The notes under the pieces are model-generated. The model saw nothing but the letters and a program-made list of their open reading frames with translations, searched no databases and was not told the origin of the DNA. From positions 14,880,001 to 14,944,000 of the forward strand of contig OZ024762.1 of assembly GCA_964016885.1 (NCBI GenBank): a stretch of 64,000 nt of DNA, read 5' to 3'. The translations under genes and the position numbers were made by a program. Below, piece after piece: positions 448-64,000 of this stretch (position 1 is its first letter; the number at the start of each line of letters is the position of its first letter). Source of the stretch: Eledone cirrhosa. Taxonomy: Eukaryota.

Positions 448-518
448 TATTTTATCTGATGAAAACGCAAATATTATCTCATGATGATATTTGTTTTTGA
501 AATGTACATAATAAAATA
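448..518 (+). ncRNA. Type-I hammerhead ribozyme motif (PLE-like, family A)
   Basis: TATTTTAT-CTGATGA-[long stem II AAAC(G)CAAATATTATC/GATGATATTTGTTTTT]-GAAA-TGTACA-TA-ATAAAATA. Stem I is 8 bp and stem III is palindromic. Next to a (TA)n tract. Confidence 0.8.
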
Positions 519-1617
519 CTTGGAACTCTTTTAACCATCTTTTGATCTTATATTATATATATATATATATATATATATATATATACACACACACACACAC
601 ATATATATATATATATATATATATATATACACACACACACACACACATATATATATATATATACACACACACATACATATATATATATATATATATATAT
701 ATATATACACACACACACATACATATATATATATATATATATATATATATATATATACACACACACATACATATATATATATATATACACACACACACAT
801 ACATATATATATATATATATATATATATATATACACACACACACACACACATTATATATATATATATATATATATATATATTAATTAATTAAAATTAAGA
901 CCAAATACTGTTAATTACATCATATTTTAATTAACGCATTCCATCTTACAGTGAAACATATGTAATATGTAATTAAATATGTATATGATACAACACTGAT
1001 GCTTTGTTCCTTTATATTAATACTATATATATATACACACACACACACATATATACACATATTTACACACACACATATATATATATATACACATATACAC
1101 ACATACACATATATATATATATATACACATATATATATACACACACACACACACACATAGATTACGCGTGTTTAAAATATCGTAGCAATTAAAACATTCA
1201 AACAGTAACTGATAGAGCACTCAATACTGGTTGATAAGATTGCAGAAAAAAAATTTCTTCGTAGAAAACTGTCAGGGAATTCGAAGTTTTAATTGGCTCG
1301 ATACATCGTCATGGATTAGACGAGATAAAAAAAATTAAGTTAATTAAAAACATTCTATTCTTCTGAAACATATTTCCTACATGTTTACTACGTGTTTCCT
1401 ACATGTTTTCTACAAGTATAAAAGATAAATGCATAGGAGAGATTTCTTAAAATGATGAAAAACCTTGCTCAAGCTCTATCGTTCCTATATAGATGTGTCT
1501 ATATGTAACAATCAGAGTTTTGACTGGAAGATTTACATATTAAACATGTATTAACAAGGATCACCACACTTAGCTATATTAAATGAATAGACACACACAC
1601 ACATACACATGCATATA

Positions 1618-1875
1618 TAATAATAATGATTTCTTTATTAACCACAAGGGTTTACATAAAGTAGACATTAAGGACAGTGCAGGACAATGCAGGACGGTAC
1701 AAATGGGCATTTCTGCGTGTAAAAAACAAAAACAGAGGGTGTAACAAAAAATAACAATGAAAAATTCCCCAATAGGGGGAGACTTCGGAGGGACATTTGT
1801 GGAGAAAGCCCAGTAAAAAGCCACAATGACCCTGACCACCAAGGCAAGTGCCCTCTCCCAGTTTTCCACCTTTAA
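1618..1875 (-). mobile_element. 3' end of a non-LTR retrotransposon with AATAAA and (ATT)n tail
   Basis: Near-identical to 54640-54910 (+). ORF tail KVENWERALALVVR, then a 3' UTR, a poly(A) signal and an ATT-repeat end. Confidence 0.6.
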
Positions 1876-2179
1876 TTTACAGATATATACTCAGAGTAGG
1901 CCCATTCACTCGGGCCATTCTTGCTTCTCTCACCCATCTTTCAACAAAATGCTGGGAAGAGAGCACTTCCCTCTCTACTCATCAAAGGTGCATGTATAGT
2001 ACATAGAATAATGTACAAATGTCAGGAAAATAAACAGTGTATGAGTCATGATATAATAACAATAACGAAATATTGTGCACAGTGCCCAGGTGCACCACAA
2101 CCCATCAAAAAAGTGCATGTACAGTACATAGGGCAATGCACATATAAATGCACATATAAATGGTCTAAAGTCTAAGCCA

Positions 2180-2440
2180 GAAGGTTCATTTGGCCGGGTC
2201 TTATCCCGGTTTCATGTCGTGAAGCGGCTGAGAGTACAAGACGCCCCCCTGGACAGGTCGCCAGTCCATCACAGGGTTACACCTCCAGCTATTGCTGGTA
2301 CTCATTTTCAGCTGAGTATACTGTAGCAACGTGAAATGAAGTGTTTGGCTCAAAAAACACAACACGTAGCCCAGGAATCGAACCCACGACATTATGATCG
2401 TAAGTCCAACACTCTTACCACTAGGCCACGTGCCGCCACG
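2180..2440 (-). mobile_element. tRNA-derived SINE (family 2, V-domain-like core)
   Basis: On the minus strand: A-box-like TGGCCTAGTGG, B-box GGTTCGATTCC and central TGATGGACTGGCGACCTGTCCAGGG. Related copies at ~12780-12980, 26370-26483, 39330-40180, 47680-47915 and 57480-57655. Confidence 0.7.
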
Positions 2441-2451
2441 CATACATACAT

Positions 2452-4618
2452 TATATATATATATATATATATATATATATATATATATATATATTCACAG
2501 ATATGTGCATACATTTATGTGTGTGTGTGTGTATATATATATATATATATATATATATATATATATATATATATATATATATATATATACATGTATATAT
2601 GCATATATATATGCATATATGTATATACAAATATATATATATGCATATATATATATATATATACATACATATATACATATATATAGTTATATATATATAT
2701 ATATATATATATATATATATAGACACACACATGAATGTATGCACATATCTGTGAATACATATATATATATATATATATATATTTATATATATATATATAC
2801 ATACATATATATATATATATATATTTATATATATATATATACATACATATATATATATATATATACATATATATATATATATATATATATACATATATAT
2901 ATATATACATATATATATTTATATATATATATATACATATATATATTTATATATATATATATACATATATATATTTATATATATATATATATATATATAT
3001 ATTTATATATATATATTTATATATATATATATATATATATTTATATATATATATATATACATATTTATATATTTATATATATATATATATACATATTTAT
3101 ATATATATATATATTTATATATATATATATATATATATTTATATATATATATATATATATATATATATATTTATATATATATATATATATATATTTATAT
3201 ATATATATATATATATATTTATATATATATATATATATATATATATATATATATATTTATATATATATATATATATATATATATATATATATATATATTT
3301 ATATATATATATATATATATATTTATATATATATATATATATATATATATATATACATATTTATATATATATATATATATATATATATATATATATATAT
3401 ATATATACATATATATATTTATATATATATACATATATATATTTATATATATATACATATATATATATATATATATATATATATATATATATATATATAT
3501 ATATATATATATATATACATATATATACATATATATATTTATATACACACATATATATATATACTTCGTTTTTGAATTTGCTTTGCAAGATTTCTTATCT
3601 GAAAACGTGTGGTGAAACAAGATGGTGTAGGACAGAACAAAGGAGAGACACAAAATAAAAACCTAGTCACTGAGAAGGTCACAGAATGTGTGTCCAAAGA
3701 GGTTGGACAATATATAAACAACTATCCGGTTATGGATCCAGCCAGCCGACCGGAAATTTATAATAAATTGAAGTGAAAACCAATGTGTGTGTGTTTTTAT
3801 TGGCAGCATGACCCTACCAAAGTATAACTATGTATATATATATATATATATATATATATATATACATCGTATATATATATATACATCATATATATATGAT
3901 GTATATATATATATATACATATATATATACACATCATATATATATATATATATATATATATACATCATATATATATATATATATATATATATACATCATA
4001 TATATATATATATATATATATACATCATATATATATATGTATATATGTATATATATATATACATCATATATATATATATGTATATATATATACATATATA
4101 TATACATATATATATATATACATATATATACATATATATATATATATATATATACATATATACATATATATACATATATATATATACATATATATATATA
4201 TATATATATATACATATATATACATATATATATATATGCATATATATAGATATATATATATGATGTATATATGTATATATGTACATATATATGCATCATA
4301 TATATATAATATATACACATATATATATATATATATACATATATATATATATATATATATATATATATATATATATATATATATATATATATATATGAAT
4401 ATATATATAATATATATATGTATATATGTACATATATATATATGTATAAATATATATATATGTATATATATATATATATGTATATATATATATATATATA
4501 TATATATGTGTATATATATATAATATATATATATATATATATATATATATATATATAAATATATATATATATATATAAATATATATATATGTACATATAT
4601 ATACATATATACATATAT
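2452..4618. repeat. Long (TA)n/(TATACA) microsatellite block with short interspersed islands
   Basis: Dinucleotide repeat seen directly. It produces the spurious YIYI ORFs. Confidence 0.95.
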
Positions 4619-61784: not shown

Positions 61785-61969
61785 TTGTTACATAATAAGG
61801 TTGTTTCCGAGGCAGACCGGTGGGTGTGAATTGGTACTCACAAGGGAACGGATGAAAAACCCAAAAGCACGAACTTCATCCGTTCCCATGTCTATATATA
61901 TATATATTAATTTTATTAAAGATATAAATGACTATTGATTGATTATTTGTTGTGATCATTGATTTACAG

Positions 61970-62113
61970 ATGGCAACCAGACAGCAAAAGCGTTGAAATT
62001 TTATCTGGCTTCGTTGGTGGAGCGACGTAAGACAGCGTGTATTAACACGGAGAAATTGGTGGTACCTTTATGTAACGTCGGCAAACTACTATCGGGACTC
62101 CAAGGAAAACACA
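61970..62113 (+). CDS. NTPase-TPR gene, coding exon 7 (gene continues beyond window)
   Basis: TTTACAG acceptor and A/GTGAGT donor. (N)GNQTAKALKFYLASLVERRK..LCNVGKLLSGLQGKH, phase 1/1. Confidence 0.8.
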
Positions 62114-63050
62114 GTGAGTTCACTAAACTCTTTCTAATGTATTTTCGATATCAAACATTAACTAACACACCATGGGACATCACATCCAGCTCTGTCGGTT
62201 TATCTTGTAAGGTTTTTGTGTCATATATTTAGGGGGTCTTGGGAGAATCTCAGACCTGCCAACCTCTAAAAACCTATATATATATATATAAATATATATA
62301 TATATAAATATAGAAACGGTATATATTTTATCTAATGATTCTAAAGACATGATTTATGATATATATATATATATATATACGTTATTCCGGGTTGAGTCGG
62401 AGGTAACCACAGTAAGTAAGGTACTCAATACATTGCAGAGTATAAAAGTTTTAATATAGATGAGATTCCTGAGATCTCTGATTCCTGATGATTTCTAAAG
62501 AATGAAACAGTTCTAGTCCTTATATATATATATATATATATATATATATATATATATATATATATATATATATATATGGGATAACAAGTTTTGATGAGAG
62601 ACACACACTGTATTTAAGGTCGAGTGACACAATTTCGAGTGATTAACAGCCTTTAGACTCACCTGATCAATGAAACAATTGTTAATACTGTAAATAAAAC
62701 CCTTTTTGTACAGCCGACCATGTTATTCTTTACTCTTTCACTATATATATATATATATATATATATATATATATATATATATATATATATATATATATAG
62801 AAACGAGTAGGACCCGACGGCTGAGCTCAAGCCGTTTCGACGGCTAATTCTGGACCAGAATTCTGGTCCAGAATTAGCCGTCGAAACGGCTTGAGCTCAG
62901 CCGTTGGGGTCCTACTCGTTCCTATTACCCACTCTACTACCCTAAGTATTGAGTACTTTGGTGCGTTATGGTCCACCTGGTTCCTTACCACATTTGCAAC
63001 CACAGAATTACTACTGATTTTTGACAATCACTTTGACCATATATGGAATT

Positions 63051-63144
63051 ACCCCTTGAGAAGATCGGCTATTTAAATACCAGGATAAATTTTCATTTAG
63101 TCCAGAATTAGCCGTCGAAACGGCTTGAGCTCAGCTGTCGGGGT
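63051..63144 (+). ncRNA. Type-I hammerhead motif with U3:A8 core (family L, only complete copy)
   Basis: ACCCC-TTGAGAA-GATCGGCTA...TAGCCGTC-GAAA-CGGCTTGAGCTCAGCTG-TC-GGGGT. Confidence 0.72.
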
Positions 63145-63656
63145 CTTACTGGTTCCTATTACCCACTCTACTACCTCAAGTATTGAGTACTTTGGTGCGT
63201 TATGGTCCACCTGGTTCCTTACCACATTTCCTTCGTTATATATATATATATATATATATATATATATATATATATATATATATATATATATATATCAAAC
63301 CTACCAGCTTCTAAAAACCCAAACGGGGAGTACCATGAAAAAAAAGTGCCCCATTACGGGGAGAAATGAGGCAAAATGGGGAGATTTTACATAATGAAAG
63401 TTATACGTATTTTCACAAGAGAAGACATCTCTCACCCACCTCAATGTGGGTGGGAGATCTCCCCGTCGGGGAGAGTTGACAGGTCTGTTGTCTTACTTTT
63501 TGTGTCACATATTTAAGAGATCTAGGGACAATCTGTGTGTGTTTGTATGAATACAAACTGAGTATAAAATCGGAATATATATATATATGTATAAATCGGA
63601 ATATATATATATATATATATATGTATATAATAACTTTTTCATTACCATTATAAGGA

Positions 63657-63740
63657 GTCTGACGAGTCGCGGATTACAGATTCGGGCTAGATCGATACAG
63701 ATCGAACCTTGAGCTGAGCAGTGGCGAAACGCGCGTCACC
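63657..63740 (+). ncRNA. Hammerhead motif (family H)
   Basis: CTGACGA-GTCGC...GTGGC-GAAA-CGCGCG-TC-ACC, then AATAAA. The element runs to ~63898 and ends in (TA)n. Confidence 0.65.
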
Positions 63741-64000
63741 AACCAATAAACGTAATGAAGGAGTAACCAATCGTCCTTGTTATCTTATTTCACTATAATA
63801 CACTCTGTCTAGCTCTACACCTCGACACTGAAGTGAACCTAAACACCGAGTGCTCACCCAGGTGAACCTACAGTAACTCCAAGTTACACTCCCTGGATAT
63901 ATATATATATAATATATATATATATATATATATATGATATCATATATATATATATATATATATCATATATATATATAAATATATAAATGTATAGTGACAA

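What the first reader, a model, noticed from the sequence alone, without database searches (positions are those of the whole stretch)
448..63898. The (TA)n microsatellites host a dense community of ~12 families of hammerhead-ribozyme mini-retroelements
Seen: many of the 100-600-bp 'unique' islands between TA tracts contain a type-I HHR layout (stem I-CUGANGA-stem II-GAAA-stem III-UH-stem I'). I count about 25-30 near-complete motifs by eye in 64 kb, often followed by AATAAA. The families are largely unrelated in primary sequence but share one architecture. Established: minimal type-I HHRs with palindromic stem III mark Penelope-like element pseudo-LTRs and metazoan non-LTR retrozymes. Inference: these are PLE ends or non-autonomous retrozymes that target, and possibly extend, (TA)n. 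Much of the 'microsatellite' fraction of this genome would then be a ribozyme-retroelement landscape. No PLE RT or GIY-YIG ORF is visible in the window.
Basis: partly seen in the sequence, partly recalled or inferred. Interest (0 to 1): 0.85.

Follow-up and report, generated by a model that had tools for sequence, protein, structure and literature searches.

The report
Ribozyme-tipped Penelope ends in TA repeats
Many of the short islands between the TA repeats are the cut-short tail ends of at least eight families of Penelope-type jumping genes, each carrying a predicted self-cutting RNA; this is a known kind of element, but this genome likely holds some 300,000 such motifs, and the copies end at one of two fixed points, which suggests how copying likely starts.

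Summary
A strict type-I hammerhead descriptor finds 22 motifs in the window (200 shuffles: mean 0.15, max 2). Family-aware patterns find 45 motif copies in 15 families, 34 with an intact core.

Eight families are 5'-truncated 3' ends (pseudo-LTRs) of autonomous Penelope-like elements found elsewhere in the genome: six Hydra-type and two Neptune-type RT + GIY-YIG elements. One family is a 592-bp non-coding tandem unit (retrozyme-like). Six were not linked to an ORF.

In 70 blind 10-kb samples, 64 of 77 motifs have (TA)5 within 200 nt downstream (random positions 14%). The genome estimate is 2-5 x 10^5 motifs.

Hydra elements with hammerheads and (TA)n preference are published, including one Octopus family (Craig 2021 supplement). 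Not found in the papers read: the density; two nucleotide-precise 3' ends per family, one of each per mirrored insertion (75 of 79); and a shared bulged hairpin beside the Hydra-type ends. The scan noted this hairpin before on other DNA of this genome; I re-derived and tested it here.

Telomerase-like extension of (TA)n is not supported. Cleavage is untested.

The parts
386..553 (+). Family A (Hydra-type PLE 3' end), short end; hammerhead core to cleavage site 456-510
   Evidence: family linked to 738-821-aa ORFs in L210-L212
4792..4841 (-). Family D fragment; hammerhead 4807-4841, stem I lost at a TA tract
5695..5857 (+). Family K island; hammerhead 5775-5806; not linked to an ORF
5878..6131 (.). 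Family A mirrored insertion: long-end arm on - (5878-5966), short-end arm on + with hammerhead 6032-6086
   Evidence: 94.7% to ORF-bearing L210
6172..6428 (.). Family B (Hydra-type) mirrored insertion; hammerhead 6329-6377 on +
7091..7278 (+). Family E (decayed Neptune-type) 3' end; hammerhead 7163-7190 with a mutated core
7403..7836 (.). Family B mirrored insertion; hammerheads 7453-7501 (-) and 7651-7699 (+, core G8A)
7958..8255 (.). Family G (Hydra-type): a diverged long-end fragment (7958-8070) and a mirrored insertion (8091-8255) holding 3' halves of the hammerhead
8350..8539 (-). Family C (Hydra-type) long-end arm; partial hammerhead 8501-8539
11322..11509 (.). Family G mirrored insertion (short end on -, long end on +), 3' halves of the hammerhead
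12309..12508 (+). Family H (Neptune-type) 3' end; U3-A8 hammerhead 12342-12371
12578..12704 (+). Family E 3' end; hammerhead 12588-12614
31337..31391 (-). Family D long-end tail only
31511..31685 (+). Diverged family H copy; degenerate hammerhead 31561-31593
32015..32206 (.). Family D (Hydra-type) mirrored insertion; hammerhead 32147-32181 on +
32679..32724 (+). Family U hammerhead; not linked to an ORF
   Evidence: two relatives among fetched loci
32815..33123 (+). Family I (Hydra-type) 3' end, long end; hammerhead 32926-32970
   Evidence: 97.4% to ORF-bearing L292
33392..33576 (.). Family F mirrored insertion; hammerhead with long stem II 33452-33523 on +
34645..34849 (+). Family E 3' end; hammerhead 34734-34761
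   Evidence: 88% to ORF-remnant locus L258
34891..35102 (+). Family H 3' end; U3-A8 hammerhead 34933-34962
   Evidence: 95.8% to both pseudo-LTRs of full-length element L032
36188..36322 (.). Family D mirrored insertion; hammerhead 36269-36303 on +
42323..42434 (.). Family D mirrored insertion; hammerhead 42375-42409 on +
42504..42744 (.). Family G mirrored insertion with two long ends (an exception to the long+short rule)
44222..44411 (.). Family D mirrored insertion; hammerhead 44285-44319 on +
   Evidence: 99.2% to an arm of ORF-bearing L156
44476..44672 (.). Family G mirrored insertion (long on -, short on +)
44697..45068 (.). Family C mirrored insertion; hammerheads 44847-44897 (-) and 44925-44975 (+)
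45152..45429 (+). Family B 3' end, long end; hammerhead 45246-45294
   Evidence: 93.8% to L159
45501..45581 (+). A-like tail fragment with the bulged hairpin
45640..45722 (-). Family O tail fragment
49401..49642 (.). B-subfamily copy (hammerhead 49438-49482, +) and an 80-bp identical tail-to-tail copy across a TA tract
50421..50629 (-). Family H 3' end; U3-A8 hammerhead 50560-50589
50814..51894 (+). Family J: about 1.8 units of a 591-592-bp non-coding tandem unit (retrozyme-like); U3-A8 hammerheads 50987-51064 and 51578-51655; bulged hairpins at 51150, 51315, 51741
   Evidence: 98.9% to L188 with 2+3 mirrored tandem units in (TA)n
52192..52414 (.). Family G mirrored insertion
52693..52843 (+). 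Family I relative; hammerhead 52748-52793 with a mutated core
52904..53123 (.). Family D subfamily mirrored insertion; hammerhead 53065-53099 on +
53237..53367 (+). Family R candidate hammerhead with a >100-nt stem II domain; weak stem I; not linked to an ORF
53517..53574 (-). E-like fragment; hammerhead 53522-53549 with a mutated core
55359..55492 (+). Decayed family D copy, long end
55560..55773 (+). Family E 3' end; hammerhead 55658-55685 (core G8A)
55865..56201 (.). Family F mirrored insertion; hammerhead 56073-56151 on +
56544..56852 (.). Family D mirrored insertion (hammerheads 56568-56601 on -, 56730-56764 on +) with about 120 bp of host exon 48083-48197 captured between the arms
56887..57065 (.). 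Family G mirrored insertion
57104..57211 (.). Family B tail fragments with the bulged hairpin at 57174
60877..61547 (.). Family C mirrored insertion; hammerheads 60931-60981 (-) and 61347-61397 (+)
   Evidence: 87.7% to L181
61582..61814 (-). Family T; hammerhead 61716-61779; bulged hairpin at 61652; not linked to an ORF
62381..62520 (.). Family D mirrored insertion; hammerhead 62485-62519 cut by a TA tract
62577..62741 (+). Family O; degenerate hammerhead 62591-62683; not linked to an ORF
62800..63236 (.). Family G: mirrored arms plus a complete U3-A8 hammerhead 63056-63139
   Evidence: 62995-63236 is 100% identical over 242 bp to an intact tandem array, L150
63623..63896 (+). Family F, long end; hammerhead 63659-63737

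Best explanation
Most of the hammerhead-bearing islands are 5'-truncated, often mirror-paired 3' ends of Hydra- and Neptune-type Penelope-like retrotransposons, plus one non-coding tandem unit, and they likely arose when the element's endonuclease cut a (TA)n tract and both broken ends primed reverse transcription at two fixed start points downstream of the predicted ribozyme. Shown: family membership, attachment to RT + GIY-YIG ORFs for eight families, the 3'-side link to (TA)n, two precise 3' ends per family, one long and one short end per mirrored insertion, and a bulged hairpin beside the ends of Hydra-type families. Inferred: the GIY-YIG domain cuts both strands in (TA)n. The hairpin likely positions the RT, one start per strand. 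The template is uncleaved multimer or religated circle, because copies run through the cleavage site. Synthesis usually aborts after 50-250 nt, and host repair joins the two arms head to head. The hammerhead probably cleaves slowly as a dimer through the palindromic stem III and serves RNA processing, not priming. The 592-bp unit J likely borrows a Hydra enzyme through the same two hairpins.
For: Full-length elements: L032 has pLTR-ORF-pLTR-(TA)n, with RVT_1 and GIY-YIG and family H at both ends. Family G is a 3,543-bp tandem unit with a 786-residue open frame. A, B, C, D and I lie downstream of YRDD ORFs; E lies downstream of a decayed Neptune-like ORF in 4 of 30 loci. Hydra motifs are in the alignment (definitions in PMC8557442 section 11). 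TA link: 64 of 77 downstream vs 14% random and 16 of 88 SINEs. TA-joined ends fall at 20/103 (G, 63 of 65), 53/136 (A, 39 of 42), 51/143 (B, 29 of 37), 55/159 (C, 22 of 23), 56/159 (I, 35 of 41) and 82/150 (H, 28 of 29) nt after the cleavage site. 75 of 79 head-to-head pairs have one long and one short end. Bulged hairpin: 29 hits in the window vs shuffle mean 0.68, max 3; two per unit in G, A, C and J, starting within about 8 nt of an end. Both cut strands extended, internal starts at two sites, and a ribozyme dispensable in vitro are reported for a Poseidon element (PMC11167929).
Against: No cleavage, expression or transposition was tested. Six families (F, K, T, U, R, O) were not traced to an ORF. 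The hairpin descriptor was written by eye from these same families. It found none in the reference B unit (though present in other B copies), only the short-site copy in the I unit and in D, and none in Neptune H or in about 35 rarer motif clusters. In a pairing-free test both first pairs formed in only 55 of 90 related instances (permutation mean 35, max 45). Clade assignment rests on motifs, not on a tree with reference sequences. Four of 79 pairs break the long+short rule. The 2-9-nt TA microhomology at the ends is partly produced by the end-calling method and differs from the homology-free start reported for the Poseidon element.
Confidence: 0.82

Rival explanations
1. Most islands are self-standing non-autonomous retrozymes (short circular RNAs) that spread as units, rather than debris of long elements.
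For: Family J is a non-coding 592-bp unit in tandem, strongly folded (z -5.9). A 422-bp hammerhead array with 15 motifs in 10 kb occurs in the blind sample L320. Mirrored A and B pairs often recur at 155-190-nt spacing. Six families have no ORF found.
Against: For eight families the sequence runs on 5' into RT + GIY-YIG ORFs, with a ladder of 5' breakpoints. Their short copies are not head-to-tail repeats, and their arm junctions differ between copies.
Confidence: 0.12
2. The elements create or lengthen the (TA)n tracts by telomerase-like addition at their 3' ends, so the link to TA is a product and not a target.
For: TA is enriched only on the 3' side. PLE RTs are telomerase relatives (PMC8557442 abstract). 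In the window, tracts beside an end are longer (median 49 vs 29).
Against: Internal junctions of tandem arrays have no TA tract (L150, L188). Blind samples show equal tract lengths (31.5 vs 32). Mirrored insertions explain the one-sided link, because both outer ends are 3' ends. (TA)n insertion preference is the published reading for Hydra elements.
Confidence: 0.05
3. The mirrored copies come from DNA-level fold-back or repair at AT-rich fragile sites, not from two priming events.
For: One junction captures 120 bp of a nearby host exon. One tail-to-tail identical pair lies across a TA tract at 49459-49642.
Against: A DNA fold-back of one copy cannot give an arm with extra element sequence beyond the partner's end; 75 of 79 pairs combine one long and one short end.
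Confidence: 0.06

Closest known systems
Hydra clade of C-terminal EN+ Penelope-like elements (Craig et al. 2021, PMC8557442; passages, section 11 and part 2 of the supplement read), including Hydra-1_Obim from Octopus bimaculoides
   Same: Single ORF with RWK-like, DKT, CxCX5C and CxxC/CxH motifs; canonical type-I hammerhead near the 3' end; insertion into (TA)n; inverted 5'-truncated copies and a one-sided tail.
   Different: That paper lists one octopus Hydra family of 2.5 kb with a different hammerhead sequence and calls the clade small. Here six Hydra families, with units of 3.3-4.5 kb in the five measured, reach thousands of exact-pattern copies each for the five counted at the hammerhead. 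The tail is about 70-105 nt rather than 30-40 bp. No hairpin at the ends is mentioned in the parts read.
Neptune clade PLEs (as defined in PMC8557442, passages read)
   Same: DKG, YLDD, CX2-5CxxC linker, C-terminal GIY-YIG, microsatellite bias, pseudo-LTR with hammerhead (families H and E).
   Different: Family H uses the U3-A8 core and carries long CA/TA runs in its own 3' UTR; it lacks the bulged hairpin.
Minimal PLE hammerheads (Cervera and de la Pena 2014, PMC4209133; parts 1-2 of 4 read)
   Same: Type-I layout, palindromic stem III for dimer cleavage, unpaired base before stem II, U3-A8 covariation, many families per genome, most motifs in truncated copies, pairs on opposite strands 100-700 bp apart.
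   Different: Counts there are about 2,000-9,000 per genome; the estimate here is 2-5 x 10^5. No (TA)n link or two-end rule is described in the parts read.
Metazoan non-LTR retrozymes (Cervera and de la Pena 2020, PMC7229834, passages; Li et al. bioRxiv 10.64898/2026.07.22.740005, part 1 of 5 and passages)
   Same: Non-coding tandem units with one type-I hammerhead each (family J; array L320); PLE origin proposed.
   Different: J is inserted as mirrored tandem arms in (TA)n with the same two ends and hairpins as autonomous Hydra elements. Circular RNA is not shown here. The highest count seen in print was 126,247 motifs in axolotl.
Poseidon element PAc of the green anole (Frangieh et al. 2024, PMC11167929; parts 1-2 of 4 read)
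   Same: Two internal reverse-transcription start sites downstream of the hammerhead that define the tail; both strands cut and extended; AT-rich target.
   Different: There the two sites are adjacent in one AC-rich stem-loop and need no homology to the target. Here they lie about 70-105 nt apart (165 in J), each beside its own copy of a bulged hairpin and at a short TA-like run, and each mirrored insertion uses one of each.

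Membership tests
Type-I hammerhead ribozyme | Core CUGANGA (or U3-A8) ... GAAA ... UH in type-I order with stems I-III | tested here: met
   22 strict motifs vs shuffle max 2; 34 of 45 family copies with an intact core
Type-I hammerhead ribozyme | Compensatory changes in stems and in the 3-8 pair | tested here: met
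   Seen by inspection, not scored: palindrome swap between the A copies; stem I swap between D subfamilies and stem II swap in I; U3-A8 in G, H, J
Type-I hammerhead ribozyme | Site-specific self-cleavage after H17 | not testable with these tools
   needs in vitro transcription
EN+ Penelope-like elements | One ORF with RT and C-terminal GIY-YIG upstream of the hammerhead-bearing end | tested here: met
   met for A, B, C, D, E (decayed), G, H, I; not found for F, K, T, U, R, O; absent in J
EN+ Penelope-like elements | Tandem or partial-tandem arrangement forming pseudo-LTRs, inverted 5'-truncated copy, one-sided tail | tested here: met
Hydra clade | RWK-like motif, DKT, CxCX5C linker, CxxC and CxH around the conserved E and N | tested here: met
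   G, A, B, D, I aligned (B and D frames are N-terminally incomplete, so DKT is seen in G, A, I only and the RW motif in G and A); C by 33-48% tblastn to G and a CxCX5C linker; definitions
Hydra clade | Groups with reference Hydra proteins in a phylogeny | not tested
Hydra clade | Insertion into (TA)n | tested here: met
   empty sites not examined
Neptune clade | DKG and CX2-5CxxC linker before a C-terminal GIY-YIG | tested here: met
   H; E: decayed frames 32-38% identical to H's protein; no tree
Non-LTR retrozymes | Non-coding tandem units, each with a type-I hammerhead | tested here: met
   family J only; not met by the short copies of the other families
Non-LTR retrozymes | Expressed as abundant circular RNA | not testable with these tools
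   needs RNA reads or northern blot

The most novel reading that the evidence does not exclude
Hydra-type Penelope elements and their non-coding parasites carry two copies of a small bulged RNA hairpin, and a dimeric RT-endonuclease primes both ends of one double-strand break in (TA)n, one end at each hairpin, on a single uncut or circular RNA. This would explain the PLE tail and mirrored insertions in one step. It has made this genome the richest in hammerhead motifs yet counted (about 3 x 10^5), with PLE ends at one in five or more TA tracts.
Probability: 0.55. Interest if true: 0.72.

Novelty: new member of a known kind. Interest (0 to 1): 0.52.

Why it matters
The element class, its hammerheads and its (TA)n preference are known, even for one octopus family, so the headline is not a new system. 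Two things would still matter. First, scale: some 100 hammerhead motifs per megabase is above the per-genome counts seen in the papers read, and part of what is annotated as simple or unknown repeat would be Penelope debris. The passages searched in a 2026 octopus repeat annotation contain neither 'ribozyme' nor 'Hydra'. Second, mechanism: how PLEs choose where to start copying, and why they leave a one-sided tail, is only partly understood. Several young families with two nucleotide-precise ends, a long+short rule and a shared hairpin give exact predictions for an in vitro assay on a telomerase-related enzyme.

Tried and rejected
The Rfam scan was swamped by microRNA matches to simple repeats; no hammerhead was among the 150 of 297 rows shown.

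A DNA search of the own genome with family G returned nothing because common words are skipped, so exact patterns were used. One F pattern matched only the window copy.

Family I first seemed attached to a YVDD ORF in L048/L186. That ORF proved to be a separate Poseidon-type element broken at the junction; I belongs to a Hydra-type ORF. Family F lies near a Neptune ORF in L225, but only about 375 bp are shared with other F loci, so the link was rejected. Family J lies beside a GIY-YIG hit in L026/L042, but the ORF faces away and TA tracts intervene. Family E first looked like a short SINE-like unit; 30 more loci showed a 5' ladder into a decayed ORF.

Relaxed-scan hits at +5271, +53767, +61093 and -18647 were treated as chance. 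The CTGAAGA at 48035 lies in a host exon and fails the descriptor.

Sequencing runs: no RNA holder listed for family J; no reads were laid. The protein search gave 2,218 relatives, and the 120 listed were essentially unnamed. Lunse et al. 2017 is not held and is known here only as a reference in PMC6765202.

The strict descriptor misses hammerheads with an unpaired base before a short stem II (family E), so genome counts are lower bounds. They rest on 70 evenly placed, not random, 10-kb samples, and one sample holds 15 of the 77 motifs.

Full report
Observation. The window is AT-rich and broken into islands by TA/CA tracts. A descriptor for type-I hammerheads (core CUGANGA or the U3-A8 variant, stems I-III, UH) finds 22 motifs; 200 dinucleotide shuffles in 300-nt blocks give a mean of 0.15 and a maximum of 2. 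Family-aware patterns, written after inspecting the islands, give 45 copies in 15 families (A-K, O, R, T, U). Of these 34 have an intact core and 22 are followed by AATAAA (background 5.8%). Stem III is a palindrome in most families, the two A copies differ by a compensatory swap in it, and G, H and J use the U3-A8 core. These features match the minimal PLE hammerheads of Cervera and de la Pena 2014 (PMC4209133, parts 1-2 of 4 read).

What the islands belong to. The genome is 3.0 Gb, and a GIY-YIG search returned 10,595 candidates, of which 150 were scored. It resembles an octopus genome (SINE resemblance recalled; a scan note says the same). Of 20 stretches fetched around long GIY-YIG frames (19) or a family-J match (1), L032 is a full-length element: pseudo-LTR with hammerhead, an ORF with DKG, YLDD, a CX4CxxC linker and GIY-YIG, a 3' UTR, a second pseudo-LTR and (TA)n. 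Its pseudo-LTR end is window family H (95.8%). Exact patterns gave 2,151 (G), 3,069 (E), 8,084 (D), 4,192 (B), 3,805 (C), 305 (F) and 8,222 (A) matches, with 0 for the reversed controls. Tandem and mirrored pairs picked from those lists led to ORFs. G is a 3,543-bp unit in a five-copy array with a 786-residue frame. A has frames of 738-821 residues and I one of 814. B, C and D have partial or broken frames continuous with their 3' UTRs. E runs into a decayed Neptune-like frame in 4 of 30 loci. G, A, B, D and I show YRDD, CxCX5C and CxxC/CxH motifs, with DKT and an RW motif where the frame reaches them. These define the Hydra clade (PMC8557442 section 11); no tree with references was built. One window G copy is 100% identical over 242 bp to the intact array, so the family is young. 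Family J is a 592-bp non-coding unit found as 2+3 mirrored tandem copies between TA tracts and folds well (z -5.9). F, K, T, U, R and O were not linked to an ORF; only F was searched for by pattern.

Link to (TA)n and scale. In 70 blind 10-kb stretches the strict descriptor at score 11 finds 77 motifs, against 1-4 in ten shuffles; 35 stretches have none and one array holds 15. This extrapolates to 3.3 x 10^5 motifs (bootstrap 2.1-4.8 x 10^5), or about 2.7 x 10^5 without the array. The window is about three times richer than average. (TA)5 lies within 200 nt downstream of 64 of 77 motifs but upstream of only 11. Random positions give 14% and 16%, and a SINE motif 16 and 9 of 88. With a library cut from non-blind loci, 130 of 672 TA clusters in the blind set and 48 of 114 in the window abut a 3' end. 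The library covers 4.8% and 15% of bases, figures that may include some flank. Tract lengths beside ends equal the rest in blind samples, and tandem junctions carry no tract, which argues against enzymatic extension. The 3' UTRs of D, E, H and some B copies, and the 422-bp array unit, carry internal TA/CA runs and so spread them.

Anatomy of the ends. Every family measured has two precise 3' ends after the cleavage site, in similar numbers: G 20/103, A 53/136, B 51/143, C 55/159, I 56/159, H 82/150. By TA onset, D, F and J have about 21/89, 53/158 and 77/240; E shows only one end. Among 79 head-to-head pairs in all fetched loci and the window, 75 join one long and one short end; these loci were partly chosen for being pairs, not for end type. 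Ends fall on TA-like runs of 2-9 nt, 9 of 12 with at least 3, a figure inflated by the way ends were called. Beside the ends of Hydra-type families and J lies one motif: a four-pair stem, a two-base bulge beginning with U, a variable upper stem and a short conserved 3' run. It has 29 hits in the window against 0.68 in shuffles, two per unit in G, A, C and J, and a hit in family T, which was not used to derive it. It is absent from Neptune H, was missed in the reference B unit and at the long sites of I and D, and was not found in most rare clusters. Without requiring pairing, the first two upper pairs form in 55 of 90 related instances (permutation mean 35, max 45): support, but modest. After deriving it I found that the scan had noted the same hairpin on other DNA of this genome.

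Mechanism. Shown: membership, truncation, mirror pairing, two ends, TA on the 3' side, and copies that read through the cleavage site. Inferred: the endonuclease cuts both strands in (TA)n. Each end primes at one of two hairpin-marked sites on an uncut or circular RNA, most syntheses stop early, and repair joins the arms, sometimes capturing nearby DNA (56601-56722 copies exon 48083-48197). Cutting and extension of both strands, two internal starts that define the tail, and a ribozyme dispensable in vitro are established for a Poseidon element (PMC11167929, parts 1-2 of 4 read). There the starts are adjacent and need no target homology.

Comparison with print. Craig et al. 2021 report (TA)n insertion and canonical hammerheads for Hydra elements, and list Hydra-1_Obim from Octopus bimaculoides with both (supplement part 2 of 59 and term searches). 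So the core of the finding is known. Counts seen in print are up to about 9,000 (PMC4209133), over 6,000 in 16 families in a coral and 126,247 in axolotl (PMC7229834 passages). Nine full-text searches turned up no paper on hammerhead density in cephalopods, on the long+short rule or on the hairpin. Most subscription papers, Repbase, Lunse et al. 2017 and the supplements of the other papers were not seen and may bear on this. Other papers seen as passages only: PMC6765202, PMC13282606, PMC10085705, and the 2026 retrozyme preprint (part 1 of 5 and passages).

Verdict. Real and well supported: new members of known PLE clades at unusual density, with an end structure that makes the priming step testable. 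Cleavage and expression are untested.

Noticed in passing
window 50141-50324 (+), 56289-56493 (+), and 5'-truncated copies 12181-12285 (+), 49663-49777 (-): A family with GAAA before CUGANGA. The two long copies fit the order cleavage block - GAAA block - CUGANGA block (type SGC of PMC10085705), with the partner of stem II far upstream; one has a GAAA mutation. The SGC reading came from scan notes, which link it to Naiad elements; that link was not tested here.
   Followed up: partly
window 56601-56722 vs 48083-48197: About 120 bp of a host exon 8.5 kb away is copied between the two arms of a family-D insertion (92.6%), suggesting templated repair at the arm junction.
   Followed up: partly
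window 47966-48990, 54450-54620, 59490-59620: Likely exons of a host gene on + (375-residue open frame at 47932-49059); many insertions lie in its introns. The protein was not identified.
   Followed up: no
L320 (G000:C28:110000001-110010000): Array of about 422-bp units, each with a hammerhead and an internal TA/CA run; 15 motifs in 10 kb, and dispersed relatives elsewhere.
   Followed up: partly
family D pattern, genome-wide: Strand counts are uneven (5,249 forward, 2,835 reverse), which suggests a large one-strand tandem array somewhere.
   Followed up: no
window G copies (e.g. 8202, 11371, 44610, 62866) and D copies (e.g. 32143, 44280, 53059): Arm junctions cluster inside the hammerhead: in stem II for G and at the core for D. 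A and B pairs recur at 155-190-nt spacing. This may mark where the RT stalls or switches.
   Followed up: no
window 45735-46321, 54053-54374, 54887-55321 and others: Many copies of a tRNA/CORE-type SINE (name recalled), three in tandem separated by short TA runs at 45735-46321; the SINE shows no TA enrichment in blind samples.
   Followed up: partly
window 3564-3782, 33142-33355, 53803-53951; 32405-32568, 11522-11775; 46362-46629, 60554-60776: Further TA-flanked repeat families, found also in other loci, with no type-I hammerhead detected.
   Followed up: no
L186 1200-6357 and L041: A separate Poseidon-type PLE (YVDD, GIY-YIG), also in mirrored arrangement and with CA runs in its 3' UTR.
   Followed up: partly
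window 13031-13435 (-), 59677-60450, 21990-22560: Fragments that look like LINE coding sequence (read by eye).
   Followed up: no
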